Positions 3,591 through 54,887 of a stretch of DNA of 55,638 bases are shown piece after piece; the first letter of the stretch is position 1; each line of letters starts with the position of its first letter. The stretch spans positions 1-55,638 of IMG/VR virus record IMGVR_UViG_3300028802_000018. One strand, 5' to 3'. The DNA is from a virus. Its lineage: Duplodnaviria > Caudoviricetes. A model generated the notes under the pieces. That model was not told the origin of the DNA. It worked only from the letters and a program-made list of their open reading frames with translations, and ran no database searches. The position numbers and the translations under genes are program-made.

Positions 3591-5816
3591 TTACGGCGAC
3601 TCAGAGTGCGACAAGTACACATTTGTTATAGTTACTGTGCCAGAAGTAACAACCTTTGCCGCCAACGCATACCACCACTCTTGCGTTGACGTAAATCCAG
3701 AATTTTTACAGTCTACCGCAAATGGTACTCTTATTGTAGCTGCCGCAGGGTTTTTTACTGATGGGAACCCGCCGCATTGAAATCGCGTTGACCCCGCTGA
3801 CGTTGCTATATCCCCATTTACCGGCGCAGTACCAATGCCAAAAAATCCTGTCAGCAACGCTGCCGACCCTGCCGTATCATTCTCCACACCACCAGTTACT
3901 GTTAGTGTCATATTACCACTGCGCCGAGGCGTAAATGTCTTAACTGCTATTATACGATAATCTACCGTATCTGTTATCGCCGCTGGATTGCTACTATCTA
4001 ATTTCCCAAATGCTGCTGGTGTACAAAAATTGCTGTTGCGATTAGCGTTGGTAGAAATTCCATTGGTTGTACAATACAGCGTTGAACCGGCCTCGACTGT
4101 CGCGGTTGCAAAAAATGCCTGCGTGTCCCAGGTGTCTATCGTGTTGCCAAAAGCCGGCGAGCCGCCCCCCACCGACAACACATTGCCTTCTGTCAACATG
4201 CTGTAAAAATTATTTCCGTGTGCCCTCATCGGCGAGGACGCCGCAACAAGACCCCCTAACCGAAGGCCCCACCCATTGCCGCCGTTATTGAAAAGCTGGG
4301 TCATATAGAAGTTGTTGATATACCCTTCGTTGAGGTCGATGCCGATCCCGTCTTGGTGGACAACAAACGTATTATAGAAATTATTGCCATTGGCATCATG
4401 CGCGCCGCTCGACAGTACGGCCTTGGGGAAATGCAACCCTACTGCATTCCGAGAAGCAGCATGGCTTAGCGAAACGGTTGTCTTGAAGTCATTGAAGAAG
4501 GTGTCCCATGAGCCAGGAGCAGACGAACTTTCTTCAAAGGAAAAACCAAAATCCTTGACCGTGTGGACCTGCATGTTAATCGTGCTCTGAGCAACCCCGC
4601 GAAACCGGCCGCCATAACTGGCTGCGCCGAGACCTAGCAGGTTGAATGGCCCCACCCGTGTCCCGTTAACCGGCACCACAGTGGCGTTCATGTCCACCAT
4701 CGTGCCGCCCACGGCACCCAGCCACATCAACGCACCCGGCGGCACACCTGCTCCTCCCGCTGTGCCGTTTCCTTCAAGCACCTGACCACTGGCGAGAACA
4801 ATCGACGCCGCGATACCGCAGATACCCTTCGGTAGACTCGCCTTGTTGCCCGTCGCAATCGCCGCGTTGATTGCCGTGGAGTTATCCGTGCCATACCCCC
4901 ACATCAGGCCGGTTCCCGACGCAGAAGCCGCAGAAGCAAGAACAGCGCTCGTTGGCGTCGTAACGCTCTGAATGGTCGTTACCAGATTGTCGCGTAACCA
5001 AGTTACGGTCAGCGTCGCGTCGCCCACCGTAACGGGATTAGCGGGGACAACCGAATACGATCCAAGACTCCCAGCCATGCCCGCAACCGCCGTAATCACC
5101 CCACCGGAGACGCTGCGAACGACAACCGAGCCGGCCGTGCCCGTACCGCCCGTGATAGGAATTTCCTCCCCCACCGTGTGTCCAGCGCCACCACCCACGA
5201 TTGTTGCAGTTCCAAAATACTGTGTGGACCCGACAGCGTTTACCGAGATCAATTTCCCAACATCGGCCGCCACGAAGGCGGCAGTAGCCGACGTAAAACC
5301 AGCGCTTCCACTTGTCATAGCCCCGTTTTCGCCCGACTTACCATCGCAAACCGCAGGCGTGTATAGCAGATTGTTGCGTGCCTCCGGCAGCGTAGCGTTA
5401 TTAGCAGTCGCTGACATCAGCGTTGCAGTAGTGCTCGGAAACGTAAACGTCGCAGGAAGGTCCGGAAAATTCAGGAACGTCGGCCCAGCCCCCGTAGTGG
5501 ACAGCGCCCCACCTGTAACGAGATTTCCGCCAAGCCTTATCGTTTTCCCCGTGTTATCAACCCCCGTCCCACCTTGCACTCCCGGCCAAATAACAGTAGC
5601 ATTGCTGCCGTTTGGGCGCATAAAGAAACTCTGTGGAGATAATTTCTTCGTTGACCCGCCCTGAACAATCGGCATTACATCTGAGGCACCAAGTGTAGTT
5701 GATGCCGGAGGTCGGGCATTAAGCCACACATCAAACTCCGTTACCGGAGTTTGCGCTATTGCTGCTGCACCAACTACTGTGCAAAAAAGAACAGCACCCC
5801 AAATTCCAAAACGCAT
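3591..5816 (-). CDS. Beta-helix tailspike/fibre-like protein with Sec signal peptide (741 aa)
   Basis: MRFGIWGAVLFCTVVGAAAIA-QTP signal; PASTTLGASDVMPIVQGGSTKKL N-domain; AVCDG...TDNSTAINAAI pectate-lyase-3-like cap; Asn-rich beta-helix repeats. Confidence 0.75.
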   Translation of the reverse strand: MRFGIWGAVLFCTVVGAAAIAQTPVTEFDVWLNARPPASTTLGASDVMPIVQGGSTKKLSPQSFFMRPNGSNATVIWPGVQGGTGVDNTGKTIRLGGNLVTGGALSTTGAGPTFLNFPDLPATFTFPSTTATLMSATANNATLPEARNNLLYTPAVCDGKSGENGAMTSGSAGFTSATAAFVAADVGKLISVNAVGSTQYFGTATIVGGGAGHTVGEEIPITGGTGTAGSVVVRSVSGGVITAVAGMAGSLGSYSVVPANPVTVGDATLTVTWLRDNLVTTIQSVTTPTSAVLASAASASGTGLMWGYGTDNSTAINAAIATGNKASLPKGICGIAASIVLASGQVLEGNGTAGGAGVPPGALMWLGAVGGTMVDMNATVVPVNGTRVGPFNLLGLGAASYGGRFRGVAQSTINMQVHTVKDFGFSFEESSSAPGSWDTFFNDFKTTVSLSHAASRNAVGLHFPKAVLSSGAHDANGNNFYNTFVVHQDGIGIDLNEGYINNFYMTQLFNNGGNGWGLRLGGLVAASSPMRAHGNNFYSMLTEGNVLSVGGGSPAFGNTIDTWDTQAFFATATVEAGSTLYCTTNGISTNANRNSNFCTPAAFGKLDSSNPAAITDTVDYRIIAVKTFTPRRSGNMTLTVTGGVENDTAGSAALLTGFFGIGTAPVNGDIATSAGSTRFQCGGFPSVKNPAAATIRVPFAVDCKNSGFTSTQEWWYALAAKVVTSGTVTITNVYLSHSESP

Positions 5817-5830
5817 TTTACTCGCTTTCT

Positions 5831-8005
5831 TTACAATCCGACCCACGCCGAACCGTTATAGAATACCGGGCATATCAGGGCACCACCAGCAGTCGGCGCA
5901 ACACCCTTAGCCGGGCATGCCGCAGTTTGATCCGTCACATGTGCTATAGCGCCTGCCACAGCACCCAATATCACCGTGGCCGGCAACGAGCCAATTGCAT
6001 ACGCCCCCGTGATAAGTGGACTGGCAATTTTTAGAGGAGCCGTGCTGTCGCTATGCAAGGCATAGCTAGTCGAGCTAGCAACCGCATTCCCAGAAATATA
6101 AACGCCTCGATTTGTCGTCCCCGCGCTGCTGCCCTGACCAACAACAACCTGGAATCCATTGTTTATCACCGTGCCCCCCGCACCAGCCGCAGCGGACGCT
6201 CCCCCCATACCAAAGCCCGTATTAGTCACTGTTCCGGTGGTGATGCCATGACCATTGGTCAGGGTGCCCGCCTGAAACCCGGTGTATGCCGGAACGGTCA
6301 CGGCAGACGAATTAGTCATCGCGGAAGTAAAACTCTGGATAGCGTCCAACGTGCCAGTAAAATTCGCTGACACGATTGGCTGCGATAGCAGCCCACGCAT
6401 CACTGTAACCGGCACCGCAGTGGTTCCTAAAGTTGGGTGCGCCGAAATTTCGTTAATTACCGACAGGCTAGCCCCTCCAGGAATATATGTAGTTTGACTA
6501 ATCCTGCCTTGTTGAGTTGCTGTCTCTGGAGATATTACCGTCGAAGTCCTATCGGCAACCACTCTTGTTGTCAAACTTTCCAGCAAGATCGGCAACGGAA
6601 ATCTGTTGTTCCGCAGTACGTTCTCGACTGGCGCGCTGTTAAGCTCGTAATAACTATAAAGCTGACTAGCGCCGCCCAAATCAACGTTATTCGCGAACGT
6701 GTTGTAACTTGGATTTATTCCAACACCCAAACTACTTTCTATTACAAACGCACCCTTGTTATTGTCTACTTGCGGAGTTCCTAGCGCCACATTCTCACTT
6801 TGGTTGTCAGCTATAAGGTTGTAGCTACCAAACACAAACGCGCAAACGCCGCCAAGATTATAACACTGGTTATTAACGAATTGGCTATACTCACCGTTTA
6901 GCTCGATGCCGCCAGCCGGGGTGCCGTTAACGTCGATGCTAAGGCCGCTGTCGTGCAATATGTTTCCGGCAATCAGGTGATACTTGCTGGTATCCTGTAT
7001 CTGGAAAATACCCGTGCCAAATTGCCAACCGGATATGTTGTTGTTAATAACATGAGTATATTTGCCGTTAACAACCATCTTTGAATTGACAAACGTGTTG
7101 CTCTTGATACGCACGTTCTCGAAATCGTTTGGCGGCGTTATGCCAGCCATTGTCAGCCCACTACTGACCAAAAGCGGACTCATTGAGGTTTGCTGGATGT
7201 AACTGTTCTGAACCGTCCAATTCTTCATAATGCAACCACCAGCAGCCTGAGCGACGACACCAATCGAATGGTCCCCGATGTTAATAAGTCCAACGTTGTC
7301 AATTACAAAATCAGACGCGCATCTATAGCGCAGCAAGAAGCTAAAATCTGTCGCAACACCAGTTGAAGACTGAATACCTAATGCGAAATCAATAGAAAGA
7401 TCACGCCAACCGCCACCATTCTTGCTGACAACATTAAATACCCCTACCGACGCTTCACCAACCGGCAACGTGCATGCTGACAGTTTCAACGTCGTCGTAG
7501 CGCGCCCACTGCCGTAGATCGTCGGCGCACTAGCGAACGTGTATGGACCGCAACCAAACACAAATATGCCCGGCCCAAACATAACATTCGGGGAATTGGT
7601 TAGTGCCGCAATTGCCGTGATGCATACCGTATTGTCTGTTGCCCCATCGCCCACGCAACCAAATTGCTCGGCCGAAACATACGACGATACGCCCAGAGCA
7701 GTCCGCCCCTGAGCCGATGTTAGCGCAGTCGGAACGGCTGAAGTTCCCGAAACATTACCCATAACCCGATTAGTTGAAATCGGCGTGGCATTGCTCCCAT
7801 CAGGTCGCATAAAGAAACTCTGCGGATAGAGTTTACGAGTCTCCCCACCCTGCACCACCGGCATTATATCCGTAGAACCAAGTGTCGTTGATGCCGGGGT
7901 ACGAGAATTGAGCCACACATTAAACTCCGTTACCGGAGTTTGCGCTATTGCCGTCACGCCAACAGTGCAAAAAAGAACAGCACCCCAAATTCCGAAGCGA
8001 CGCAT
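5831..8005 (-). CDS. Beta-helix tailspike/fibre-like protein with Sec signal peptide (724 aa)
   Basis: MRRFGIWGAVLFCTVGVTAIA-QTP; first ~75 aa paralogous to 3591..5816; FGCVGDGATDNT motif; beta-helix repeats. Confidence 0.78.
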   Translation of the reverse strand: MRRFGIWGAVLFCTVGVTAIAQTPVTEFNVWLNSRTPASTTLGSTDIMPVVQGGETRKLYPQSFFMRPDGSNATPISTNRVMGNVSGTSAVPTALTSAQGRTALGVSSYVSAEQFGCVGDGATDNTVCITAIAALTNSPNVMFGPGIFVFGCGPYTFASAPTIYGSGRATTTLKLSACTLPVGEASVGVFNVVSKNGGGWRDLSIDFALGIQSSTGVATDFSFLLRYRCASDFVIDNVGLINIGDHSIGVVAQAAGGCIMKNWTVQNSYIQQTSMSPLLVSSGLTMAGITPPNDFENVRIKSNTFVNSKMVVNGKYTHVINNNISGWQFGTGIFQIQDTSKYHLIAGNILHDSGLSIDVNGTPAGGIELNGEYSQFVNNQCYNLGGVCAFVFGSYNLIADNQSENVALGTPQVDNNKGAFVIESSLGVGINPSYNTFANNVDLGGASQLYSYYELNSAPVENVLRNNRFPLPILLESLTTRVVADRTSTVISPETATQQGRISQTTYIPGGASLSVINEISAHPTLGTTAVPVTVMRGLLSQPIVSANFTGTLDAIQSFTSAMTNSSAVTVPAYTGFQAGTLTNGHGITTGTVTNTGFGMGGASAAAGAGGTVINNGFQVVVGQGSSAGTTNRGVYISGNAVASSTSYALHSDSTAPLKIASPLITGAYAIGSLPATVILGAVAGAIAHVTDQTAACPAKGVAPTAGGALICPVFYNGSAWVGL

Positions 8006-8006: not shown

Positions 8007-9176
8007 TTATGCACCTGGGAAATTTCCTTCCTGAATGTTGGCGGGCGAAACAAGATAGCCACGAGGATATGTCGCCAACCACAGAGTAGCCGTGCCACCA
8101 TCTCGCGCTACAGCACGATCAACATCCCGGTCATAGTCATCTTTCTCTTCTGCATAGGCCATGCCCAGACGACCAAGCGTGCGCCAAAGCACTCCAAGCT
8201 CGATCAAATCCTCACTCAGAAGCGAAACATCGGTATCCGCGTGCCAATCATCCTGGGTTAACCATGCCCAATAGATCATGAACAATGCGCCAGACCCGTT
8301 ACCGCTGCTACCGCCAGCTTCATCTCCTAGAACTCCACCTTCCTCATCCCCCAGCACACCACCCTCTTCATCACCTAACACACCACCGAATCCTGTACCA
8401 CCACCACCCGCAGTTACTGCCGATACCGGATTTGCCGGGACAACAGAATAAACCCCTCCACTCCCCACAATTTCAGCCGCTAGGATACCTCCAGAAGCAT
8501 CAACAACCGTCACCTTGAGTTGCAGTTGCTCGGTAAATGAGCCACCCAAAACAGTGAGAAACTCCCCAACCGAATATCCGGAACCAGCACTCGATCCAAT
8601 ATCCCCAAATTTTGCCCTTTTGAGGGTTTGCGACCTGACCCAGTTCTTCGACACATACTCGAAAACAAAGGTCGAGGTTATGTCCGCAACAATGCTAGGG
8701 TCGATCTGAAATTTTACCTCGTCCCCAACATAATCCCCTGACGTGATGGACGACTGATAAGGAGTCTGGCTACCGAGCAAACTCTGATCCAGAATGAAAG
8801 GGTCGGGAGCGCCGGGAACACGCAAACGCCAACGCCGTTCGATAGAAGCTCGGCCGATAATGCTCGACTTGTACATCTGCCATTGCTGGGGCGACAGCGC
8901 CCCACGCATTTGCCAATATCGCGTGCGATCCCATAACGTGTCATTGATCATCGACCGGAAGTCAGCCGGCAACGTATAAACCGATGTCCCATCGGCCGTG
9001 AAAACATGCTCCTGCACCAGCGCGACCCAATTGGCTCGCTCCGCTATCTCTCTCCCGGTACGCCTAGCCTGTTCCAATAATCGCCGAGCCGATGGCTGGT
9101 TGTTACCGACGATCATCGACGGGCGATCAATACCAATGTTGTCGGCGACATGCTGGCATATTTCTAACAGGGACAC
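8007..9176 (-). CDS. Head-tail adaptor / tail tubular A-like protein with inserted domain
   Basis: GTG start SLLEICQ; YTLPADFRSMINDTLWDRT; FEYVSKNWV; C-terminal LIELGVLWR...GMAY; insert with VLGDEEGG repeats. Confidence 0.75.
   Translation of the reverse strand: MSLLEICQHVADNIGIDRPSMIVGNNQPSARRLLEQARRTGREIAERANWVALVQEHVFTADGTSVYTLPADFRSMINDTLWDRTRYWQMRGALSPQQWQMYKSSIIGRASIERRWRLRVPGAPDPFILDQSLLGSQTPYQSSITSGDYVGDEVKFQIDPSIVADITSTFVFEYVSKNWVRSQTLKRAKFGDIGSSAGSGYSVGEFLTVLGGSFTEQLQLKVTVVDASGGILAAEIVGSGGVYSVVPANPVSAVTAGGGGTGFGGVLGDEEGGVLGDEEGGVLGDEAGGSSGNGSGALFMIYWAWLTQDDWHADTDVSLLSEDLIELGVLWRTLGRLGMAYAEEKDDYDRDVDRAVARDGGTATLWLATYPRGYLVSPANIQEGNFPGA
8321..8387 (-). repeat. Three tandem 24-bp coding repeats (GGVLGDE[E/A])
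   Basis: GGVLGDEEGGVLGDEEGGVLGDEAGG in translation, with synonymous divergence at DNA level. Confidence 0.9.
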
Positions 9177-9180
9177 CGCT

Positions 9181-9438
9181 TTAGTCCTTCTTAGATGCGC
9201 CCGATGATCGTCCACCCGCAACAGATGCCGCTCCCCTCACCGTTGCTTCCGGTTCGGCTGCCTTCGCGGCCTCCTTGAACAGAGTGTATTCTGCTATATA
9301 GAGGGCGCGATCCTCGTCGGTCGCCTCGCGAACGCTCAGAGTGCCATCCGGGTGGGTCAACTCAACCAATTCGCGATCAACCTCTGTCCCATCATCGCGA
9401 ACAATCACCTCGGTGAAAAACCGTGCAGGGAGAGCCAT
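9181..9438 (-). CDS. Hypothetical protein, short paralogue of the N-terminus of 9462..10211
   Basis: Shared RF..E...E.VE...P...V...TDE.R.....EY.LF pattern; AGGAG RBS. Confidence 0.65.
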   Translation of the reverse strand: MALPARFFTEVIVRDDGTEVDRELVELTHPDGTLSVREATDEDRALYIAEYTLFKEAAKAAEPEATVRGAASVAGGRSSGASKKD

Positions 9439-13526: not shown

Positions 13527-13527
13527 T

Positions 13528-19244: not shown

Positions 19245-19408
19245 TTCAGCGTCTCCAGAGCCACAATCACCCGCCGCAAGAACGCCGCATAGCTATTGAT
19301 CTCAACCACCGTCATCGGCTTCGTTAACCGCGCGGCAATCACCCCGTTCGCTTTGGCGATACAATGCGCCAACTCGCTCATCGCAGCGGCTTCCTCGTCG
19401 GCTATCAT
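19241..19408 (-). CDS. 55-aa hypothetical protein inside the split portal locus
   Basis: Hand-translated MIADEEAAAMSELAHCIAKANG...ALETLK; ATGA overlaps at both ends. Confidence 0.6.
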   Translation of the reverse strand: MIADEEAAAMSELAHCIAKANGVIAARLTKPMTVVEINSYAAFLRRVIVALETLK

Positions 19409-24603: not shown

Positions 24604-24797
24604 CAGTGTCCGCGCCCCCATACACTGGCTCGAACGCTAGCAGCAGCGTGAGCCGGCACGTCATACACCCCGAACGGCGTTATCTCACCGTGCTTGCCAC
24701 AAGCTGGGCAGATCACACCGCCACACTCGTCGCATGGGAGTGGAAGTTGATCAACCTGAAGATGGGTGTAACAGGCAAGGCAGATGCTGTCCGTCAT
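24603..24797 (-). CDS. Small Cys-rich zinc-finger-like protein
   Basis: Three CxxC pairs; coupled to neighbours. Confidence 0.55.
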   Translation of the reverse strand: MTDSICLACYTHLQVDQLPLPCDECGGVICPACGKHGEITPFGVYDVPAHAAASVRASVWGRGH

Positions 24798-45666: not shown

Positions 45667-45891
45667 TCAGTCCATCCACTCGCGCGGGATTTTCAACACC
45701 TGCCCCGGATGGATCGTATATTTCTCGTCCATGCCAGGGTTGAGATCGGCAATCTTCTGATAGTCGCGGGCATGCCCAAAACGCTCAGCGATCTCCGAGA
45801 GCGTATCACCCTTGACGACCGTAACCGTGTAGCAGTCATCGTGCCGGGTGACGTTGGAGAACCAATCGTAAATGCTACCGATGATGCTCAT
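45667..45891 (-). CDS. Stand-alone LysM protein
   Basis: VTVVKGDTLSEIAERFG...YQKIADLNP.....IHPGQVLKIP. Confidence 0.9.
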   Translation of the reverse strand: MSIIGSIYDWFSNVTRHDDCYTVTVVKGDTLSEIAERFGHARDYQKIADLNPGMDEKYTIHPGQVLKIPREWMD

Positions 45892-46556
45892 TGTGATGCC
45901 TCTTCTCTGGCTTGTTGACGCGACAGAGCGTTCATCGCTGCCGCCGACCCATTTCCATAGATGCCATCAATCGCCCCCGCGTACAGACCATCCTCAGCGA
46001 GCACTTGTTGAATTGCTTTGATGCGCTCAACTACCGAGCGGATACCGTCTGATGGCGCAGGCCCCTCACCGCCATACGCTCCGTCAAGCGCGCGTTCGGC
46101 ATAGCGCATCCGTCCTGAAAAGCCTGGAAGATGTGTTGATGTTGTCCCCCCAGGACGCTCATAGGTTAACCCCGCCGAAAACACAGCATCATCAAGCGTT
46201 GCTGTCTTTTTTAGTGCGGTGATCGTGGACTTGTGTGACCCGCTCAACTCGTGAATTAGGAAACTGTAGTTTCCTTCATCCGAGGAGAATGCAAAACCGT
46301 TCTCGACGCACCATGCCTCGAATGCGCGTCGGCGTGGTCCCGTCCATTGCGCCCAGCCATAGCCGCCACGGCTACCCTCAACCGCAGGCGCAATCTCCTG
46401 CAAAGTTTTAAAGCCGGCGCTCTCGTAGCCCAGATTGCCAACGATTCCTGCCGCCTGTTCAGGCGTTAGATCAAAATATACCTCAAGACGCCTGACCAGC
46501 CATCCGCTGCGCTTCTTGTATGAGGCATCAGTGCCGGGCATATCAAAACCATTCAT
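45888..46556 (-). CDS. Endolysin: phage tail-lysozyme-like domain plus PG-binding domain
   Basis: QAAGIVGNL.YES, GYGWAQWTGPRR, YERPG; IQQVL...G.Y.GAIDGIYG. Confidence 0.85.
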   Translation of the reverse strand: MNGFDMPGTDASYKKRSGWLVRRLEVYFDLTPEQAAGIVGNLGYESAGFKTLQEIAPAVEGSRGGYGWAQWTGPRRRAFEAWCVENGFAFSSDEGNYSFLIHELSGSHKSTITALKKTATLDDAVFSAGLTYERPGGTTSTHLPGFSGRMRYAERALDGAYGGEGPAPSDGIRSVVERIKAIQQVLAEDGLYAGAIDGIYGNGSAAAMNALSRQQAREEASQ

Positions 46557-48277: not shown

Positions 48278-51040
48278 CTACCATGACGTGTTCATCGCCC
48301 ATTTCGGATAATTGTTGAAATCAACCGGTGGGGAAAGCGCGTTAAATCGAGTCTGACAATCAGACAACAGGCTCGACATGCCAGTAACCCCCGCAGCGGT
48401 CATGCATTGAAACACGCCAAGCCTAACCTCCTGATAATTTGAAACCATCCCGGTAGAGGTGAATGATACCGGAACTAGTCCGATATTCTCAACCCCAAGG
48501 CCCGCGCTAGTGGTAGATATATTTATTGCCGATCCCCCTGGAGTTGCTGACAGATTAAAGGTATTTCCAGACCTGTTAACTGCATAATAAGGCGTATTTG
48601 ACGACAGCCCCCCTGGTGGAGTTACCGGCTGTGCATGGTTATCATACGCCGGGAATATCCATTTATCACCATTCGCCGGAGTATAGCCCTGTCCTGGCTC
48701 AATCGCAGTAAACACGCCGGGAGTGCCGCTCGCCCAGCTAATCGCCACGCCACTGGGTAATCCAACCATTCCCGCGCCTAGCGACGCGAAGTGCGCGTCA
48801 TCTGAAATCGTGTCCGGGTCTGTGTACGGCGTCCCGCCATCTACATAAACCAAGTCGTAGTAGGTATATATCTGACCATAACTAAACGTCGTTGCAACAT
48901 AGTTCCACCAAGTCTGCATACCCTGTAGCATCGTGAGCGCATTTGCGTCTTCACATAATGTATAAGCAAGGGTGTAGGTATGCGCGGTATAGTCCAGCAT
49001 CCAAGGTGCGTGTTGCGTATTATTTGGTGCCCATAGCTTATTTGTCGAGACATAGCTATTGCCACCGGCAATCCATAGATTAGGCCAATTAACACTAGCT
49101 GTTCGACAATCTGATAGCATGTCCGGAATACCGGTTCCGTATGGGTCGGTATCCGGCCATAAACCATCGGCAAAAACCAGATCGCGTAATGCCCATGCTA
49201 GGTTTCTGATTGTATAAGCAAATTCAGTTACGACACCATAGGCTGTCGATGGAGATGTTGGGTTACGCGCGCCGGGGCCATACTGAAGCAGGCCGCCCAT
49301 AGCTGCTTCTAATATCAAGTCCAGATAAACCGGTTCACCGAACACCTCGTAAGCGTAAGCAGCCGTGGATGGCATGTGATCTGTAGTTGTTCCGTCAAAC
49401 CCCGCGCAAACATTTGTATTGGGGGGCAGCGTAAACCCAGCCCCTGTCGTGCCAGCGCTGGGGTTCCATGTCAGTGTGTCGTAGCCTGTGGTCGGCATGT
49501 TTGCATAAGTAGCATTGTAAAGCTGCGCTGGTCCATGCGTGCTTAGGTCATAAAGACCCGTCCCAAAATGCGCACGAGATAGACCAATCATTCTCGCATA
49601 AAGCTCATCAACCACAGCTTGATTGCTAAAATGCCGTCTCTGCCAATCTGTTATCAACCCAATATCGCCACGATTGCCCGCCCCCGCAGTGTGTAGTGTT
49701 AGCGGCCCGACGCTCAATGTATCCCACGAATAAGTATACGACCCAACTGACGTTAAGCATGAATCAATAGTTATACTTAGATCAAACGGCAGAAAGCATC
49801 TCGTTGATCTACGATAAACTGGATCGAAACGGACTTGCACTAGTCCAGGAGCCGATACGCTACCTTGCGCTTGAACCCAATTAGATTTACCTTCCGCAGT
49901 CGCGCCAAACTGCGATCCAAAATGCAACACATTCCTAACCGGAGTAAGGGTGTGTGTCCCTGATCCGCCATTTGTCGCTGTTGCGGGCGCTTCTGTACTC
50001 GCTGCGGAAGTTAATGAAAGAGAATTGGTATTATCGCTATTGGCGTGAACAAAATAAAGTTGCGTCAAGCTCCAACCAGCCGGCAAAGTGCCCGTTGTCG
50101 TCAACACACACGGAACTGAATTGTATGCGGCTTCATGTTGACCAGCGCCATGATACCAATCAGGTGTTGTATTGCAGGTGAAGCTCGCTCCACTCGTCCA
50201 CGTTACGTCGCGTGCGGTATACCCAAATGGAGGGGTGATTGTCGCGGTCCCGCTGCCCCCAGGCCCTACGGAGTCGATTGTGAATGCACTTAACGCTCGC
50301 CAACCCTTGGCCGGGGTGTCTTGATTATAGTACGGTTGCCAAACCCTCGGCAGATACCAGAACCCGGCAAGGTTTCCGCTGGTATCGTTAACCGCGACGA
50401 CGTAATGCAGGCATTCAAGCTGCCCGTGAGGAGTTCCCGCAGCGTTGACCTTCGTCCAGTGTCGCTCGCTCAAACCTCCCCCGCCATCCGCATATGTGAC
50501 TTTCTGAAAATTATTGGCGTCGTTCTCAAGCTCCGCTGTCCACGCCCCCGTCAGGCCAAAATTTGAGCCTGCCCCTGTCATCTTCGTGACAAAATTTGCC
50601 GCGTATATCTCTGTTCTTGATCGCCCAGAAGCCGCAGGAGCGGAACCCCCACTTAGAACATTGACGGTGATTCCGCCGGTCGTTATCGCTTTTGGTGAGC
50701 ACGCCGGAATGACCGAACAATGCTTCATCGCCCCACTAGCCCACGAGCGAACCTGCGAGAACGTGCAGGGCCAAACGGAATCATCGCTGTCGAACTGAAG
50801 CTCTGGGTACTCTCCGCTTGGAATATCACCGTCAGCGAATTGTAGCCCAAACGGCGGAACTGGAGCGCCAGCCCCTACCGTCGAGCCTGATGTGCTAACT
50901 AGCGTCAGGGTCGTAATCAGACCGCTCGGCGGCGGTGCTCCTGATGGTGCTCCACCACGGCCAAAAAGCCGAGCCATAGATGAGACCGGAACCATAGCAA
51001 CCCCGGCAGCAGCCCCGGCTAGGACGCTACGTCGGTTCAC
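48278..51040 (-). CDS. Large protein with Tat-type signal peptide, putative glycan-active/adhesin (920 aa)
   Basis: GTG after GGAG; MNRRSVLAGAAAGVAMVPVSSMA; RGDIG, H.PS..Y...GE..YLD, R..AW.LR, APWM.DY motifs; two LP.GL...T.Y(Y/F) inserts. Confidence 0.65.
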   Translation of the reverse strand: MNRRSVLAGAAAGVAMVPVSSMARLFGRGGAPSGAPPPSGLITTLTLVSTSGSTVGAGAPVPPFGLQFADGDIPSGEYPELQFDSDDSVWPCTFSQVRSWASGAMKHCSVIPACSPKAITTGGITVNVLSGGSAPAASGRSRTEIYAANFVTKMTGAGSNFGLTGAWTAELENDANNFQKVTYADGGGGLSERHWTKVNAAGTPHGQLECLHYVVAVNDTSGNLAGFWYLPRVWQPYYNQDTPAKGWRALSAFTIDSVGPGGSGTATITPPFGYTARDVTWTSGASFTCNTTPDWYHGAGQHEAAYNSVPCVLTTTGTLPAGWSLTQLYFVHANSDNTNSLSLTSAASTEAPATATNGGSGTHTLTPVRNVLHFGSQFGATAEGKSNWVQAQGSVSAPGLVQVRFDPVYRRSTRCFLPFDLSITIDSCLTSVGSYTYSWDTLSVGPLTLHTAGAGNRGDIGLITDWQRRHFSNQAVVDELYARMIGLSRAHFGTGLYDLSTHGPAQLYNATYANMPTTGYDTLTWNPSAGTTGAGFTLPPNTNVCAGFDGTTTDHMPSTAAYAYEVFGEPVYLDLILEAAMGGLLQYGPGARNPTSPSTAYGVVTEFAYTIRNLAWALRDLVFADGLWPDTDPYGTGIPDMLSDCRTASVNWPNLWIAGGNSYVSTNKLWAPNNTQHAPWMLDYTAHTYTLAYTLCEDANALTMLQGMQTWWNYVATTFSYGQIYTYYDLVYVDGGTPYTDPDTISDDAHFASLGAGMVGLPSGVAISWASGTPGVFTAIEPGQGYTPANGDKWIFPAYDNHAQPVTPPGGLSSNTPYYAVNRSGNTFNLSATPGGSAINISTTSAGLGVENIGLVPVSFTSTGMVSNYQEVRLGVFQCMTAAGVTGMSSLLSDCQTRFNALSPPVDFNNYPKWAMNTSW

Positions 51041-52014
51041 TGTATTCTCCAGAAGTCGCGCCCTGAAGGTGGTGCAGCACCCGCAAGCTCCCATGCTCCA
51101 ATTGTTGGTGTCGAGCCGGATCGCGATGAACCAACAATATCTGTCACAGGAGTTCCCGAAGCCGTCCCATTGTTCGCCAACTTGGCGGACCCTGATTTAA
51201 CCCGGAAATCCTCTGTCGTGGCCGTCGTGTTTTCCCATTCTGTTGCCTTAACAACACTTACCTGTCCGCTCGTGTCGTAGTTAGTTCCACCAAAACTACC
51301 TTTGTCCGTTGCGTTATTTGCGCACGTCCCAGCCGTACCGGCGTAGTCCGTCGCATACCCAGCAACAACAACATTTTTTAATAATGGCGCGCCGTACCCT
51401 ATCCCAAAACCAGTTACACTTGTTCCGGCCCCTAAACAAACAACTGTAATATCTTGAACAACGTTACTACCGTTTGCACTTCTAAAACCATTGGTATTAT
51501 TTATGTTATAAATAAGAGAGTTTGTAGCCGTAGTTGTACCAGTTATTTGCACTCCATAACTGGTGGTTTCACTAGACCCGGCATGACAAATAACACACTT
51601 GTCTATAGTTCTTCCGGCAAAAGAATTGTCTATGTATTCAACAACTGTACCATAATCACTATCTTTCTTTAGCTGCAATCTAGTTAACTGAAAATTAGCA
51701 CAAGTGATAGCAAGTACATCAGTGCTGCCGGATGTCATTCTGATCGCTGCCCCATTTGAGGCGTTATACCTCAAGGCATTGGTCAGCTTGTTTGCATTGT
51801 CCACGAAGCTGTTGGTTGACCCGGCCGTCAGCAAGACGTTAAACACGCCAGCCGTTACCCCGCTCAGTGTCTGCGTTGCGGTAATGGTGATCTCGGCATT
51901 CTGGCAGTTACCCTCTTGGTGATCCAGTAGAGTCGCTGCAAACGACGCGAACCACAGCGCCGGAGTCGCGTAATCTGCCCCTCCGTTTGGCCCGATGATC
52001 TTGCTAACTGTCAT
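51037..52014 (-). CDS. Beta-helix-like protein without signal peptide
   Basis: Asn/Thr/Gly-rich; C-terminal DIVG..R....TIGAWE. Confidence 0.6.
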   Translation of the reverse strand: MTVSKIIGPNGGADYATPALWFASFAATLLDHQEGNCQNAEITITATQTLSGVTAGVFNVLLTAGSTNSFVDNANKLTNALRYNASNGAAIRMTSGSTDVLAITCANFQLTRLQLKKDSDYGTVVEYIDNSFAGRTIDKCVICHAGSSETTSYGVQITGTTTATNSLIYNINNTNGFRSANGSNVVQDITVVCLGAGTSVTGFGIGYGAPLLKNVVVAGYATDYAGTAGTCANNATDKGSFGGTNYDTSGQVSVVKATEWENTTATTEDFRVKSGSAKLANNGTASGTPVTDIVGSSRSGSTPTIGAWELAGAAPPSGRDFWRIQ

Positions 52015-52490
52015 GGCCGGATTATCCTAGGGTCGCGTAACGCCAGCTTAATGCTGACAAGCTCCCGTAATGCATCCGGGGTCACAGACAGGGTATCGTC
52101 AACGGCAAGGCGTCGTCCCATTCGACGCTCAACCGCTCGCTCCAGAGCATCCAAGTCAAGGGTATGCCGCCGGAACCAGCCAAGCCATCCCTCTGGCGCG
52201 TTATCGACCGCGATCAGCCAAGACATCGCCCGAACCGGATCATCAACCTGGATATCGACATCGACAATCCGCCACTCAGGATGACCTAGAACCTCTCGCC
52301 CCGGATGCCGCTCGCTATCGATCACGTCCACCACATCGCCACGCTGCGGGCGCGCCAGGAGGCCCTTATGCCGATCTGATGCCCAGACACACAGACGTGG
52401 TTTAGGCACCTCAGCAGCCCGCACACGCGGGAGAAACGGGATCGCGCATAGCGCCGCGAGCCAGCTAAATATCGCTCGGCGTGACGCCAT
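52011..52490 (-). CDS. Hypothetical protein with Tat-like signal
   Basis: MASRRAIFSWLAALCAIPFLPRVRA-A; RGDVV.V...P.WRIV. Confidence 0.6.
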   Translation of the reverse strand: MASRRAIFSWLAALCAIPFLPRVRAAEVPKPRLCVWASDRHKGLLARPQRGDVVDVIDSERHPGREVLGHPEWRIVDVDIQVDDPVRAMSWLIAVDNAPEGWLGWFRRHTLDLDALERAVERRMGRRLAVDDTLSVTPDALRELVSIKLALRDPRIIRP

Positions 52491-52890: not shown

Positions 52891-54345
52891 CTAATTAGCC
52901 GTCCATGTCCCTGTGAAACTTACAGTAGAATAGTGCGTTGAGTCCCGCCCAAGAAGGCAAATCGCGTTGCCGACTACGGCAGTTGCGACCAGCGTCCCCG
53001 TCCCGGCCGTCCCATAAGCCGTGCGCGCCGTATTCTCATACATTGCCGATGACCCCAAAGCTGCTAGGGTTATCGCCGTGGATACGTTGTTGTCGTTGAG
53101 GATACAGAACTGATACCCGGCTACAGGAACCGGTGGCGTCACGGTACATGTGCCCGTGCAGTAGAAATTCTGCCGAGGCCCCGCTAGCGAGACAGAAGTC
53201 CCCGCCGATGTCGGTGGAACAGGAGGCGCTGCCCACGTCATGTTATCGAGCAGTACCGTCGTTCCCGTCTGCGTTGCCGGCGTCGGCAAACCAAATGCAG
53301 CTTTCCAGTTTGTCCCGTCTGAGAACCAACTGGTTGCCTGATTTGCCCCTAATGTGATAGCTGCCAACCCGTTCACGGTCGATGTCGCTGGATCGAGGAT
53401 GTTTCCAACCCCTGCTGTCTGATAGTCAAAAGCAAACCCTGAAGCAAACGATCCGGTCGCCTGCGGAACGATATCGGTCTGCGTGACCGTGTTCGTCCGG
53501 TTGACCATCTTCCCCGCATCTGTTGATAGCACCGTATAGGCGCTATTTCCGCTTTGCGTGTTGAGCGCCGCCGTCGTCCCCACCGTGAATGTTCCGGTTC
53601 CAGGCGAAGGAGTGATAACCACATTCGGAGTTCCCGCCGTCACGCTGACCGAGCCACCCGACCCACAAGCTGAACCGTTTGCAATATGGTTCCCGTTCGC
53701 ATCAATCTTGACGCAATCTCCCGAAGTCTGCGTCCCGGTCGTCGTCACATATGCGGTCGTATTCCCCGAGCGTGTGCCTACCGAGGGAGCCACACCAGCG
53801 CCACCACCGATCACCGGAAGGTTTGCTGTGAGCGCCCCGGACGATGCTAACGTGCCGCTTGCGGTATAGGCCAGTACCCCGCCGCTGGTCCCCGCCGTCA
53901 AGCCGGTGCCGCCGTTGGCGACAGGCAACGTCCCCGTTACGCCGGTTGTGAGCGGCAGTCCAGTAGCGGAAGTCAAAGTGCCACTGCTAGGAGTTCCCAA
54001 GGCACCACCGTTCACCAAAACAGACCCAGCACTACCAACATTGACCCCCAAAGCCGTAGCTACGCTGGTCCCTAAACCGCTCACATCGTTTGCGATTCGC
54101 ACTGTACAAGTGTTATTTGCGCAGACAATAGTCTTATTGGTGAGCGCCTTTGCGGTGGCCGATAGGTACGTATCGAGCGCGTTCGGCGTCGTTTTGACGG
54201 CCGGGTTAGCGGTCTGGAAGACCGGGATAGATTCAGTTCCGACTATAGCTCCAGCCGCCCCCAAACTATCTATGGTTCCATCAGCGCGAGCTATTCCAGC
54301 CGCCAGAAGAAGGCAGGAGACAAGCGCAATTCGCGTCTTTAGCAT
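52891..54345 (-). CDS. Fibre protein with Sec signal peptide (484 aa)
   Basis: MLKTRIALVSCLLLAAGIARA-DG; IDSLGAAGAIVGTESIPVFQ N-domain; GTLPVANGGTG fibre repeat; SDGTNW. Confidence 0.78.
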   Translation of the reverse strand: MLKTRIALVSCLLLAAGIARADGTIDSLGAAGAIVGTESIPVFQTANPAVKTTPNALDTYLSATAKALTNKTIVCANNTCTVRIANDVSGLGTSVATALGVNVGSAGSVLVNGGALGTPSSGTLTSATGLPLTTGVTGTLPVANGGTGLTAGTSGGVLAYTASGTLASSGALTANLPVIGGGAGVAPSVGTRSGNTTAYVTTTGTQTSGDCVKIDANGNHIANGSACGSGGSVSVTAGTPNVVITPSPGTGTFTVGTTAALNTQSGNSAYTVLSTDAGKMVNRTNTVTQTDIVPQATGSFASGFAFDYQTAGVGNILDPATSTVNGLAAITLGANQATSWFSDGTNWKAAFGLPTPATQTGTTVLLDNMTWAAPPVPPTSAGTSVSLAGPRQNFYCTGTCTVTPPVPVAGYQFCILNDNNVSTAITLAALGSSAMYENTARTAYGTAGTGTLVATAVVGNAICLLGRDSTHYSTVSFTGTWTAN

Positions 54346-54355: not shown

Positions 54356-54559
54356 TCATTGAATCTTGAACTTCGACCCGACATCAATCAACAAAACCGA
54401 CCCCGTGTCTATCAATAAGAATACCGGAACTGCTGGCGCACCGACCCTACCTTGCGTTTCCTGTGGTATACCAATACCAATTCCAATGCCAGCATTCGTA
54501 TCGGATGATAAACCTATCACAACCACGGAAACCGCCAGTATGAAGATGATCTTTCTCAT
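54356..54559 (-). CDS. Small secreted adaptor peptide
   Basis: Signal ending DTNA, then GIGIGIGIP, C-terminal LLIDTGSVLLIDVG. Confidence 0.7.
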   Translation of the reverse strand: MRKIIFILAVSVVVIGLSSDTNAGIGIGIGIPQETQGRVGAPAVPVFLLIDTGSVLLIDVGSKFKIQ

Positions 54560-54563
54560 ATCA

Positions 54564-54887
54564 TCAATCTAGATCATAGAGAGCAATGATTGACGTGCAA
54601 TTAGTATTAGTAACCATCACCCTCTTAACCCGAAATGGTATAATTGCGCCAGATTGAACATTGGTAAAGGTTACAGCCGACGTATCGTTTGCTAGAATGA
54701 CCGCTATGTTGCAGGCCGTAGCATCACCGATATAAATCCCCACAGTGACACCACCGGGGAGATTTACCGTATTGCTTGTCGCAGCGATCACCGCTTTCCA
54801 AGCCTGATTTGTTGGGCTAGTAGGAGGAGGACCGGCCTCGGCTGCAAAACCAAGAATGATGAATAGAACGAAGATCAGTGATTTCAT
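54564..54887 (-). CDS. Head-spike base protein (RcGTA Rcc01079-like) with Sec signal peptide
   Basis: AGGAG RBS; MKSLIFVLFIILGFAAEA-G; GIYIG....NIAV.......VTF.NV..G.I.PFRVKRV..T.T....IIALY. Confidence 0.75.
   Translation of the reverse strand: MKSLIFVLFIILGFAAEAGPPPTSPTNQAWKAVIAATSNTVNLPGGVTVGIYIGDATACNIAVILANDTSAVTFTNVQSGAIIPFRVKRVMVTNTNCTSIIALYDLD

What the first reader, a model, noticed from the sequence alone, without database searches (positions are those of the whole stretch)
3591..54887. Virion appendage proteins built for export: fibres and spikes with signal peptides
Seen: Sec-type N-termini (basic residue, hydrophobic core, AxA-like site) on 3591..5816, 5831..8005, 24794..26587, 52891..54345, 54356..54559 and 54564..54887, and twin-Arg N-termini on 48278..51040 and 52011..52490. 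The mature parts mostly look like tailspikes, fibres and a head-spike base, and lie in virion operons. Capsid, portal, adaptor, nozzle and the 138-aa fibre stub have no signal. Known: tailed phages normally assemble fully in the cytoplasm. Inference: appendages are exported, folded in the periplasm, and dock on virions only once the inner membrane is breached or after lysis. Alternative: they are secreted lysogenic-conversion or surface proteins derived from fibres.
Basis: partly seen in the sequence, partly recalled or inferred. Interest (0 to 1): 0.92.

Follow-up and report, generated by a model that had tools for sequence, protein, structure and literature searches.

The report
Phage spike and fibre proteins with export signals
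A short-tailed phage puts ordinary bacterial secretion signals and paired cysteines on eight late proteins, among them a tailspike-type enzyme and a relative of a known capsid-spike base, so these parts very probably fold outside the cytoplasm where the rest of the particle is built.

Summary
Observation confirmed. By one fixed rule, 8 of 70 curated ORFs have a basic start, a hydrophobic core and a small-x-small site. These are the eight named ORFs. The nearest cultured relative has 0 of 73.

The signals are translated and behave as export signals:
- A/B homology begins exactly at the ATG, with in-frame codon indels.
- All 11 members of the F family carry a divergent signal plus two invariant Cys.
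- In the A family, 21 of 21 signal-flagged members keep a Cys pair that the 3 clearly signal-less members lack.
- G homologues use either Sec-type or twin-Arg-type leaders.

Mature parts:
- A has a tailspike depolymerase fold.
- C is a GH28-like beta-helix.
- F is homologous to solved, signal-less capsid spike-base proteins, including RcGTA Rcc01079.
- E carries a Gly-hydrophobic repeat exactly at its cleavage site, conserved in two other phages.
- G is PL26-lyase-like, not a spike.
- B and H are unassigned.

Export is well supported. Docking onto particles at lysis is only inferred, although Cellulophaga phage phi18:3 has three leader-bearing proteins annotated as structural by MS/MS. This scan has noted the same phenomenon in many other phages.

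The parts
3591..5816 (-). A, 741 aa. Sec-type signal (MRFGIWGAVLFCTVVGAAAIA|QTP), then an N-domain of about 110 aa (residues 22-76 shared with B), then a tailspike-type beta-helix body with a C-terminal beta domain. 6 Cys in the mature part.
   Evidence: HMMER relatives cover residues ~130-741. AF2 model has pLDDT 71, with residues 1-150 unmodelled. Foldseek top hits are phage tailspike depolymerases (K2-2 TSP, CBA120 TSP4, Depo32) at E 3e-7 to 4e-6, prob 1.0, but TM only 0.17-0.28. WceF 6tgf also matches, E 7.5e-5. Cys157/Cys333 co-occur with the signal across relatives.
5831..8005 (-). B, 724 aa. Sec-type signal (MRRFGIWGAVLFCTVGVTAIA|QTP), an N-domain 80% identical to that of A, and an unrelated body. 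10 Cys in the mature part.
   Evidence: The body has no hit in Pfam, PHROGs, NCBIfam, PDB sequences or the word-index search. Its fold was not modelled.
24794..26587 (-). C, 597 aa. Sec-type signal (MKFIAAAAVWLGVAFSPSLAAA|QA), a Cys-x11-Cys N-module, and a right-handed beta-helix GH28-related body. 10 Cys. Lies upstream of the small terminase gene, outside the tail blocks.
   Evidence: Atlas: features 0.93 to beta-helix/GH28-related clusters; its own Atlas model TM 0.58 by query and 0.78-0.84 by target to Pect-lyase_RHGA_epim clusters. Weak hits: PF12708 E 0.027, PHROG tail spike E 0.0012. The N-module recurs in P0034, a relative of A.
52891..54345 (-). D, 484 aa. Sec-type signal (MLKTRIALVSCLLLAAGIARA|DGT) and a fibre-like body. 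8 Cys.
   Evidence: Atlas features 0.93; 26 of 30 hits are unnamed viral clusters and 3 of 30 are tail-fibre C-domain clusters. Signal-bearing relatives stand next to F-like and E-like genes in L022 and L024, and in L004. A signal-less partial relative is in the Bradyrhizobium phage.
54356..54559 (-). E, 67 aa. Signal (MRKIIFILAVSVVVIGLSSDTNA|), then GIGIGIGIP at the predicted mature end, then three LL(I/V)xxG-type repeats.
   Evidence: Counterparts L022:6294-6509 and L024:6237-6458 have a signal, then QGFGFGMG(L/F), then the same repeats. In RcGTA, residues 2-10 (IALGLGLGL) of the head fibre bind the base pentamer (PMC7296036, passages).
54564..54887 (-). F, 107 aa. Signal (MKSLIFVLFIILGFAAEA|GPP) and an ~89-aa body homologous to capsid head-spike base proteins. 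2 invariant Cys.
   Evidence: PHROG 12296 'tail fiber protein' E 3.2e-7. 10 of 10 database relatives carry a signal and both Cys. The family profile hits 8cjz_h 'Spike Base Protein' at E 2.4e-6 and RcGTA Rcc01079 (6tb9) at E 0.0026.
48278..51040 (-). G, 920 aa. Twin-Arg-type leader (MNRRSVLAGAAAGVAMVPVSSMA|RLFGRGG) and a multidomain PL26 (PcRGLX)-like body. 13 Cys. Last gene before the lysis genes.
   Evidence: 29 relatives at E <= 0.001 besides itself, 2 of them with PF19501. AF2 pLDDT 82.9, pTM 0.87, residues 1-34 disordered. Foldseek best hit is the PL26 exo-rhamnogalacturonan lyase 5xqo, prob 0.96, E 2.3e-3, TM 0.3. Pfam TAT_signal E 0.047, below the cut-off.
52011..52490 (-). H, 159 aa. 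Twin-Arg-type leader (MASRRAIFSWLAALCAIPFLPRVRA|AEV). Mature part of unknown kind, 1 Cys.
   Evidence: No family hit. No relative in the fetched loci.
54899..55315 (-). Signal-less 138-aa stub resembling the particle-proximal N-terminal part of tail fibres and tailspikes. Candidate docking point.
   Evidence: PHROG hits to N-proximal parts of tail fibre/spike families, E 1.3e-8 to 4e-3. PDB 'Tailspike protein' chains 7rfv/7rej/7rfo, residues 106-173, E 0.002-0.005. No signal.
51037..52014 (-). Signal-less 325-aa protein between H and G. Unusually Cys-rich for a signal-less protein (6 Cys).
   Evidence: Weak NCBIfam choice-of-anchor Q hit, E 0.0013, below the cut-off.
8007..9221 (-). Signal-less adaptor/tail protein directly upstream of B.
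   Evidence: phrog_6013 tail protein E 3.2e-40. In L001, L002 and the Bradyrhizobium phage its counterpart is followed directly by the nozzle-like gene.
1599..3197 (-). Signal-less nozzle-like protein downstream of A and 3201-3575.
   Evidence: phrog_5107 E 5.2e-66. Relatives in L001 and L002.
45888..46556 (-). Endolysin without signal or membrane anchor. Implies a holin-dependent lysis step.
   Evidence: PF18013 Phage_lysozyme2 E 1.6e-22. N-terminus.

Best explanation
All eight N-termini are working export signals: six Sec-type (A-F) and two twin-Arg-type (G, H).

Step 1. Export and folding (comparative evidence, odds about 85%). Late in infection the proteins cross the inner membrane. Signal peptidase trims them at the small-x-small sites. 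The Sec-type ones fold oxidatively in the periplasm with disulfide bonds.

Step 2. Two groups after export (inferred).
- Docking-type parts. F forms a base like the RcGTA head-spike base. Cleavage exposes the Gly-Ile repeat of E, which would sit in that base. The three LL(I/V)xxG repeats of E may hold the fibre D. A and B share one N-domain behind the signal, as tailspikes that share a docking site do.
- Enzyme-type parts. G (PL26-lyase-like), C (GH28-like beta-helix) and perhaps H may act as free periplasmic or released polysaccharide-cutting proteins.

Step 3. Meeting the particle (inferred, odds about 35-40% for at least F-E-D or A/B). Heads and tails are built in the cytoplasm. The docking-type parts can meet them only when the holin opens the inner membrane for the signal-less endolysin, or after lysis.

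The likely gain from export is disulfide-stabilised, environment-proof appendages. A second possible gain is early removal of the infected cell's own surface polysaccharide.
For: Signals are real and translated:
- 8 of 70 ORFs against 0 of 73 in the nearest cultured relative.
- A/B homology starts at the ATG, with in-frame indels.

The signal feature is conserved while its sequence is not:
- F family: 11 of 11.
- A family: 21 of 25 flagged, plus P0039, which lacks only the basic residue.
- G family: my reading gives about 16 of 23 full-length relatives with a leader, either Sec-type or RR-type. The script flagged 17 of 29.
- Neighbours of G-like and F-like genes in L003, L004, L007, L009, L022 and L024 carry signals too.

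Oxidative folding:
- Two invariant Cys in F. They are absent from the signal-less relatives 8cjz_h, 6tb9 and the L023 ORF.
- The A-C157/C333 pair is present in 21 of 21 flagged members and absent in the 3 clearly signal-less ones.
- Cys is 1.38% of the mature signal set against 0.42% of signal-less late proteins, p 2e-6.
- A, B, C, D and F have even Cys counts (6, 10, 10, 8, 2). The Tat-type G and H have odd counts (13, 1).

Appendage nature:
- A fold.
- F matches solved spike bases.
- The E motif sits exactly at the cleavage site in 3 of 3 phages, matching the RcGTA fibre peptide (PMC7296036).
- D.
- The stub resembles fibre N-termini.

Particle association elsewhere: phi18:3 gp085-087 have leader-like N-termini and are annotated structural or tail proteins 'based on experimental MS/MS proteomics analysis'. 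The nine other MS/MS-annotated proteins that I read have none.

The endolysin has no signal, so a hole-forming holin step is expected.
Against: - No trained signal predictor was run, and no cleavage, localisation or virion data exist for this phage.
- The twin-Arg assignment is sub-threshold in Pfam (E 0.047) and absent in NCBIfam.
- The Fisher tests treat related sequences as independent.
- A, B and 3201-3575 are an insertion between genes that are adjacent in 3 of 3 relatives. That looks like an accessory cassette.
- Most relatives of A go straight from signal to body, with no anchor domain, like secreted enzymes.
- G resembles a secreted fungal lyase, and A also matches the Tat-exported bacterial enzyme WceF (PMC7949094).
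- The N-domain of A/B has no relative outside this phage and was not modelled. Its docking role is a guess.
- No route across the outer membrane is evident.
- Known spike-base proteins work without a signal, so capsid binding by F is unproven.
- Later checks of similar claims elsewhere in this scan priced the virion-docking reading at about 10 in 100.
Confidence: 0.4

Rival explanations
1. The proteins are exported but never join the particle. All eight are free periplasmic or released proteins. The depolymerase-type enzymes (A, B, C, G) cut the infected cell's capsule, EPS or O-antigen from within. This frees progeny, stops re-adsorption to debris, or excludes other phages. The F-E-D set is a fibre module put to a new use on the cell surface.
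For: - Bacterial precedent: WceF is a Tat-exported trimeric tailspike-fold glycanase (PMC7949094, passages), and A matches it (6tgf, E 7.5e-5).
- Relatives of A are mostly signal plus body.
- G is PL26-lyase-like.
- A and B are an insertion relative to 3 of 3 relatives.
- C lies outside the tail blocks.
- Matrishin et al. 2023 read signal-bearing phage genes as host-surface modifiers (PMC10367356, passages).
Against: - F belongs to a family whose only known members are capsid-bound spike bases. It keeps a similar-length N-terminal arm before the jellyroll.
- The E peptide motif at the cleavage site mirrors a known base-fibre joint.
- A and B share an N-domain behind the signal, which a free enzyme does not need.
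- The 138-aa stub has no distal part of its own.
- phi18:3 leader-bearing proteins are annotated as found in particles.
- No integrase is in the record.
Confidence: 0.38
2. The hydrophobic N-termini are not cleaved. They act as membrane anchors that hold the proteins at the inner membrane until lysis, or as hydrophobic docking helices buried in a partner, so the proteins stay on the cytoplasmic side.
For: - AF2 draws residues 3-15 of A as a helix.
- Signal-anchor release is known for some phage endolysins (recalled, no call).
- No predictor or experiment here shows cleavage.
Against: - Classical small-x-small sites follow every core.
- Sec-type and RR-type leaders replace each other within the G family. 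That fits export, not a specific docking helix.
- Conserved Cys pairs track the leader.
- The E motif would be internal and useless unless the leader is removed.
- The leader sequences are not conserved.
Confidence: 0.08
3. Annotation artefact: the true starts lie downstream of the hydrophobic segments, or the pattern is chance.
For: - GTG/TTG alternatives exist downstream in A (5729), E and H.
- A loose scan gives many false positives on uncurated ORFs.
Against: - A/B homology starts at the ATG, with codon-wise indels and synonymous changes.
- 11 of 11 F relatives, and most A and G relatives, called independently in other assemblies, include a leader.
- 0 of 73 in the control.
Confidence: 0.03

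Closest known systems
RcGTA head spike: base Rcc01079 and fibre Rcc01080 (PDB 6tb9, 6tba, 6tsu, 6tui; PMC7296036). Also the 'Spike Base Protein' chain 8cjz_h.
   Same: - The F-family profile matches both base proteins over the whole jellyroll (E 2.4e-6 and 0.0026).
- The mature size of ~89 aa is like their 84-92 aa.
- The next gene (E) offers an alternating Gly-hydrophobic peptide like the fibre's IALGLGLGL, which binds the base pentamer.
   Different: - The known bases have no signal and no Cys pair. F and all 10 relatives have both.
- The repeat peptide is on a separate 44-aa mature protein, not on the fibre itself. It becomes N-terminal only after leader removal.
- Capsid binding and a pentamer state were not tested here.
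- I found no paper for 8cjz.
Phage tailspike depolymerases with a parallel beta-helix (Klebsiella K2-2 TSP 8iq5/8iq9, CBA120 TSP4 5w6h, Depo32 7vz3, LKA1 gp49 4ru4).
   Same: The body of A (residues ~150-741) matches them best: Foldseek prob 1.0, E 3e-7 to 1.5e-5. Two adjacent genes share an N-terminal module and differ in the body.
   Different: - A and B start with a secretion signal.
- TM-scores are low (0.15-0.28).
- Sequence identity is 8-12%.
- The N-domain matches no known particle-binding domain.
Pantoea stewartii WceF (PDB 6tgf; PMC7949094).
   Same: A tailspike-fold protein made with an export signal (Tat, 28 residues) and working on exopolysaccharide outside the cytoplasm. A matches it at E 7.5e-5, prob 0.98.
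   Different: WceF is a chromosomal gene of an EPS cluster, not a phage late gene. It has no fibre-type partners. The leader of A is Sec-type.
Leader-bearing, MS/MS-annotated structural proteins gp085, gp086 and gp087 of Cellulophaga phage phi18:3 (NC_021794.1).
   Same: - Three consecutive large late proteins (547, 785 and 559 aa) of a cultured phage.
- Their N-termini are MKNKITIIMILMSISFGYSQ, MKKTIYILSILLLTISGVSAQ and MKHTFSIVLFFILSIGLNAQ.
- They are annotated 'virion structural protein', 'structural protein' and 'tail protein', 'based on experimental MS/MS proteomics analysis'.
- The nine other MS/MS-annotated proteins that I read have no leader.
   Different: - The host is of Bacteroidota.
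- tblastn of A, D, F and G against the phage collection, which holds this record, gave no match.
- Few Cys (0, 1 and 3).
- I found no paper discussing the leaders.
- I did not see the proteomics data themselves.
Signal-peptide genes of Porphyromonas gingivalis phages (Matrishin et al. 2023, PMC10367356).
   Same: Phage genes with predicted Sec signals, read as use of the host secretion system (passages).
   Different: There the signals are on capsid proteins, spanins and five unknown genes. No fibres, spikes or spike bases are mentioned, and the proposed role is host-surface modification.
PL26 exo-rhamnogalacturonan lyase PcRGLX (PDB 5xqo, 5xqg, 5xq3; Pfam PF19501).
   Same: Best structural match of G (prob 0.96, E 2.3e-3). 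PF19501 is recorded on 2 of 30 listed proteins of the G family. PcRGLX is a secreted enzyme (recalled).
   Different: TM is only about 0.3 and identity 10%. G itself has no Pfam hit apart from the sub-threshold TAT_signal. Catalytic residues were not examined.

Membership tests
Sec-type (signal peptidase I) signal peptide | Basic n-region, uncharged hydrophobic h-region, small residues at -3 and -1 | tested here: met
   A-F all pass one fixed rule. 0 of 73 CDS in the control phage pass.
Sec-type (signal peptidase I) signal peptide | Positive call by a trained predictor (SignalP) | not testable with these tools
Sec-type (signal peptidase I) signal peptide | The signal feature is kept in relatives although its sequence drifts | tested here: met
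   F family 11 of 11. A family 21 of 25 flagged, plus P0039.
Sec-type (signal peptidase I) signal peptide | Cleavage and periplasmic location shown by experiment | not testable with these tools
   Indirect only: conserved Cys pairs and even Cys counts.
Twin-arginine (Tat) signal | (S/T)-R-R-x-F-L-K-like motif before a mildly hydrophobic core | tested here: inconclusive
   G has NRRSVLAG and H has SRRAIFSW. Pfam TAT_signal on G: E 0.047, 14.1 bits against a cut-off of 22.7. No NCBIfam hit at E <= 1. Several G relatives have clearer motifs, such as TRRDFLF and RRRSFFV.
Twin-arginine (Tat) signal | Basic residue in the c-region (Sec avoidance) | tested here: inconclusive
   H has PRVRA before the site. 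G has none before the site and Arg at +1. The feature itself is recalled knowledge.
RcGTA-type head-spike base (Rcc01079) | Sequence homology to the solved base proteins | tested here: met
   F-family profile: 8cjz_h E 2.4e-6; 6tb9 E 0.0026.
RcGTA-type head-spike base (Rcc01079) | Partner with an N-terminal alternating hydrophobic-Gly peptide | tested here: met
   E has GIGIGIGI. L022 and L024 have QGFGFGMG(L/F), all directly after the predicted cleavage site. RcGTA peptide from PMC7296036.
RcGTA-type head-spike base (Rcc01079) | Made without a signal and assembled on capsid pentamers in the cytoplasm | tested here: not met
   F and 10 of 10 relatives carry a signal and a Cys pair. Capsid binding is not testable here.
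RcGTA-type head-spike base (Rcc01079) | Pentamer that binds the fibre peptide | tested here: inconclusive
   One complex job (four copies of F plus E) gave no verdict.
Phage beta-helix tailspike depolymerase | Parallel beta-helix body like solved tailspikes | tested here: met
   A: Foldseek prob 1.0, E 3e-7, low TM. C: Atlas model TM 0.58/0.78-0.84 to Pect-lyase_RHGA_epim clusters. B not tested.
Phage beta-helix tailspike depolymerase | N-terminal domain homologous to a known particle-binding domain | tested here: not met
   No hit for residues 22-130 of A in Pfam, PHROGs or 1.84 billion representatives, other than B.
Phage beta-helix tailspike depolymerase | Presence in the particle | not testable with these tools
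   Needs virion proteomics.
PL26 / PcRGLX-like polysaccharide lyase | Pfam PcRGLX domains or a clear fold match | tested here: inconclusive
   PF19501 on 2 of 30 listed family members. G itself has no hit. Foldseek prob 0.96 but E 2.3e-3 and TM 0.3.

The most novel reading that the evidence does not exclude
A tailed phage, and a recurring set of uncultured phages, builds part of its particle outside the cytoplasm. A capsid spike is exported through Sec: base F, a cleavage-exposed five-fold 'star' peptide on adaptor E, and fibre D. Tailspikes A and B are exported the same way. All are disulfide-bonded in the periplasm and snap onto finished heads and tails only in the moments after the holin opens the inner membrane. 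E would be a symmetry adaptor: four to five Gly-hydrophobic repeats for a pentameric base, and three LL(I/V)xxG repeats for a trimeric fibre.
Probability: 0.3. Interest if true: 0.9.

Novelty: new variant of a known kind. Interest (0 to 1): 0.68.

Why it matters
Textbook assembly of tailed phages is wholly cytoplasmic. If receptor-binding and decoration parts are routinely exported and added at lysis, several things would change:
- How host range is engineered. Fibres may need oxidative folding and leader removal to be active.
- How phage proteins are expressed for therapy and diagnostics.
- How genome annotators treat signal peptides in structural modules.
- How lysis timing is understood, because it would be coupled to particle completion.

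Even the modest reading matters. Phage-encoded depolymerases exported before lysis would be a new way for a phage to strip or remodel its host's surface from within.

This locus gives unusually testable handles:
- An 89-aa exported relative of a structurally solved spike base.
- Signal-less and signal-bearing forms of the same families, for direct comparison.
- Predicted mature N-termini that mass spectrometry can confirm.

Tried and rejected
Searches that found little:
- Close-relative searches of B and G in viral contigs found nothing.
- The word-index search of B found only itself.
- tblastn of A, D, F and G against 50,697 GenBank phage records found no match. A megablast of window 1-25000 found only a 133-nt match to Sulfitobacter phage phiGT1.
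- Pfam, PHROGs and NCBIfam gave nothing usable for A, B, D and H.
- PDB sequence searches of E, D and B gave nothing meaningful.
- The stub is not similar to the N-terminal extension of the signal-less G-like protein of L008.
- PHROG scans of ten proteins from related loci added only a tail-fibre C-domain hit for the L007 565-aa signal protein.

Checks that failed or were dropped:
- A loose signal scan on uncurated ORFs could not separate window from control (11 of 91 against 10 of 74). I dropped it in favour of curated gene lists.
- I first took the record for circularly permuted. It is classed 'linear', about 94% complete, has no end overlap, and identical proteins sit on a 61,135-base contig elsewhere. 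I therefore do not claim that its two ends are contiguous.
- Lipoprotein reading of D (LVSC at residues 8-11): rejected, because only five hydrophobic residues precede the Cys.
- Complex prediction of four copies of mature F with mature E returned no verdict (score 0.11, mark 0.32, controls not run). It counts neither for nor against binding.

Literature:
- Searches found no paper on secretion signals on fibres, spikes or spike bases of tailed phages.
- One search found no paper naming 8cjz.
The supplements of PMC5026251 (its methods ran SignalP 4.1 on RcGTA proteins) may bear on whether Rcc01079 was tested.

Full report
WHAT THE RECORD IS

The window is a whole virus record of 55,638 bases. 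IMG/VR classes it as linear, and it is about 94% complete. Nearly all genes lie on the minus strand.

PHROG scans give these genes:
- small terminase, 24076-24621
- large terminase, 22668-24155
- portal, 20824-22509, with its C-terminal part at 18435-19244
- major capsid protein, 15257-16291
- an adaptor-type tail protein, 8007-9221
- a nozzle-like protein, 1599-3197

A signal-less endolysin lies at 45888-46556. No tyrosine integrase is found.

By capsid protein the nearest cultured relatives are Bradyrhizobium phage ppBjS10J-1 (56.8%), Stenotrophomonas phage BUCT555 and Myxococcus phages Mx8 and Mx9. The phage is therefore an Mx8-like short-tailed phage, probably of a Gram-negative proteobacterium. 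The host is an inference.

The two ends of the record are not shown to be contiguous. Identical proteins sit on a 61,135-base contig in another assembly.

THE OBSERVATION

I used one fixed rule: a basic, non-acidic start; an uncharged hydrophobic run of at least 8 residues beginning by residue 8; and a small-x-small site after it.
- Exactly these 8 of 70 curated ORFs pass.
- None of the 73 annotated CDS of the Bradyrhizobium phage passes (Fisher p 0.0027).
- Seven of the eight lie among the 11 genes of the two appendage blocks.
- Capsid, portal, terminases, adaptor, nozzle and the 138-aa stub have no such start.
- A looser scan on uncurated ORFs was uninformative.

Start codons hold up:
- Shine-Dalgarno-like runs precede C, D, F and H, and the GTG of G, which overlaps the upstream stop.
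- For A and B the 80% identity begins exactly at the ATG. The upstream DNA is unrelated. The leader differs by two whole-codon indels and four synonymous changes.

ARE THEY EXPORT SIGNALS?

No trained predictor was available, so I used comparative tests.

(1) F family.
- All 10 database relatives of F have a hydrophobic leader ending in a small-x-small site, mostly before Gln. The leaders are unalignable in sequence and length.
- The ~85-residue body is about 50% identical and holds two invariant Cys.

(2) A family.
- HMMER found 168 relatives of the body of A.
- Among A and the 24 relatives of at least 500 aa within P0032-P0059, 21 are flagged as signal-bearing. All 21 have Cys at the columns of A-C157 and A-C333.
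- Of the four not flagged, P0039 has a leader without a basic residue and has both Cys.
- The other three (P0033, P0047, P0059) have no leader and lack both Cys (Fisher p 0.0017, relatedness ignored).

(3) G family.
- Relatives are 30-39% identical.
- By my reading, about 16 of 23 full-length ones start with a leader.
- Some leaders are Sec-type, such as MSRVLVLIVLFLGIAVSAHA. Others are twin-Arg-type, such as TTRRDFLFSAATSAVIVPSSVHA. A script flagged 17 of 29.
- A hydrophobic-hydrophobic-Gly-basic-Gly-Gly motif often follows the site.
- Interchange of the two leader types within one family is what export predicts. It is not what a structural helix predicts.

(4) Cysteine content.
- Cys makes up 1.38% of the mature parts of the eight, against 0.42% of 15 signal-less late proteins (p 2e-6).
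- The five Sec-type proteins that contain Cys have even counts (6, 10, 10, 8, 2). The two Tat-type ones have odd counts (13, 1).

The twin-Arg label itself stays provisional: Pfam TAT_signal E 0.047 is below the cut-off, and there is no NCBIfam hit.

WHAT THE MATURE PARTS ARE

A
- The model (pLDDT 71, residues 1-150 unmodelled) best matches phage tailspike depolymerases.
- It also matches the Tat-exported bacterial enzyme WceF.

C
- A GH28-related right-handed beta-helix, by Atlas features and the Atlas model.

D
- Looks like viral fibre clusters by language-model features.

F
- Its family profile matches the solved 'Spike Base Protein' 8cjz_h (E 2.4e-6) and the RcGTA head-spike base Rcc01079 (E 0.0026).
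- Both are 84-92 aa, and the match starts at residue 15-22, so they have no leader. Both lack the Cys pair.
- A signal-less, Cys-less form also occurs in viral locus L023.

E
- A real gene. In two other viral contigs a small ORF overlaps the end of the F-like gene.
- It encodes a leader, then QGFGFGMG(L/F) directly after the predicted site, then three LL(I/V)xxG-type repeats. This matches the GIGIGIGIP and repeats of E.
- In RcGTA, residues 2-10 (IALGLGLGL) of the fibre form a five-pointed star bound to the base pentamer (PMC7296036, passages).
- In the E family this peptide becomes N-terminal only if the leader is removed.

G
- Model pLDDT 82.9 and pTM 0.87. It best matches the PL26 exo-rhamnogalacturonan lyase PcRGLX (prob 0.96, TM 0.3). 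PF19501 is recorded on two relatives.
- It is enzyme-like, not a spike.
- Signal-less G relatives with a 130-160-residue N-terminal extension occur in L005 and L008.

B and H
- Unassigned.

CONTEXT IN OTHER PHAGES

- G-like genes occur on IMG/VR contigs of 41-111 kb.
- Their neighbours, and those of F-like genes, also carry leaders. L007 has five in a row, L004 three large ones, L009 three. L022 and L024 have the whole F-E-D-type run.
- In L001, L002 and the Bradyrhizobium phage the adaptor gene is followed directly by the nozzle gene. A, B and 3201-3575 are therefore an insertion in this phage.

MECHANISM

Export and periplasmic oxidative folding are well supported (about 85%). What follows is inference.

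For docking at lysis:
- F belongs to a family known only as a capsid-bound base, and it keeps an N-terminal arm of similar length.
- E mirrors a known joint.
- A and B share an N-domain behind the leader.
- The T7-fibre-like stub has no distal part.
- The endolysin needs a hole-forming holin, which would let the compartments mix.
- In Cellulophaga phage phi18:3, three consecutive leader-bearing proteins are annotated as structural from MS/MS. The nine other MS/MS-annotated proteins that I read have no leader.

For free enzymes:
- The WceF precedent (PMC7949094).
- The signal-plus-body build of most relatives of A.
- The lyase-like G.
- The insertion status of A and B.
- The lack of any known particle-binding domain.

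I favour a mixed model. F-E-D, and probably A and B, are docking-type. G, C and perhaps H are free enzymes. My confidence in the mixed model is 0.4.

WHAT IS KNOWN, AND NOVELTY

My searches found no paper on secretion signals on fibres, spikes or spike bases of tailed phages.

Nearest in print are the signal-bearing capsid, spanin and unknown genes of Porphyromonas phages (PMC10367356) and the bacterial enzyme WceF.

Within this scan the phenomenon has been noted many times on other DNA. 407 notes in at least 374 genomes hold the search words. The follow-up reports listed concern mainly phages of Bacteroidota and Acidobacteriota. Later checks there priced the docking reading near 10 in 100.

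What this locus adds:
- A relative of a solved capsid spike base with a leader and a disulfide pair.
- A docking-type peptide placed exactly at a cleavage site.
- Twin-Arg-type as well as Sec-type leaders.
- Matched signal-less and signal-bearing forms within two families.

VERDICT

This is a new variant of known kinds of protein. Interest 0.68.

Noticed in passing
window 40654-40917 (-): An 87-aa early-region ORF starts MILPAPLFAASFVALVAAAGSS. It is signal-like but has no basic residue. It could be a small exported or membrane protein, such as an exclusion factor. No Pfam hit.
   Followed up: partly
window 51037-52014 (-): A signal-less 325-aa protein lies between the two twin-Arg-type genes. 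It has 6 Cys (1.8%), far above other signal-less late proteins. It has a sub-threshold choice-of-anchor Q hit. It might travel with a Tat partner.
   Followed up: partly
window 18435-19244 and 20824-22509 (-): The portal family phrog_12082 is matched in two pieces: profile positions 4-477 by the 561-aa ORF and 518-697 by the 269-aa ORF. Three ORFs lie between them.
   Followed up: no
window 11458-13685 (-): Among the head genes are an MptE-like (PF01973, Maf/DUF115-type) protein and a hexapeptide acetyltransferase. This may be a sugar-modification module.
   Followed up: no
window 19405-20622 (-): Weak ART-PolyVal (ADP-ribosyltransferase) hit, E 1.6e-5, below the cut-off, inside the portal region.
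   Followed up: no
L022:6294-6509 and L024:6237-6458: The E-like ORFs start 28 nt inside the 3' end of the F-like gene, in another frame. An ORF caller that keeps the longest frames misses them.
   Followed up: yes
G family, window 48278-51040 residues 24-31 and relatives: A short motif follows the leader in many relatives: hydrophobic-hydrophobic-Gly-(Arg/Lys/His/Gly)-Gly-Gly, as in RLFGRGG, AFFGRGA and GFFGKGG. One signal-less relative (P0010) begins right at it, MLFSG. It may be a docking peptide.
   Followed up: partly
window 24794-26587 residues 24-50 and protein P0034: The N-module CPxxNxYPFTxxCPxP..LN.AIA of C recurs behind the leader of P0034, a relative of the body of A. N-modules are therefore shuffled among signal-bearing proteins.
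   Followed up: no
window 1-1210 and 55379-55638: ORFs run off both ends of the record. Joining the ends keeps a frame open, but there is no end overlap. Identical proteins lie on a 61,135-base contig elsewhere. A few kb may be missing.
   Followed up: partly
window 14414-15190 (-): An HNH endonuclease gene lies next to the capsid gene (phrog_374, E 9.5e-67). Related HNH segments occur twice in the Bradyrhizobium phage.
   Followed up: no
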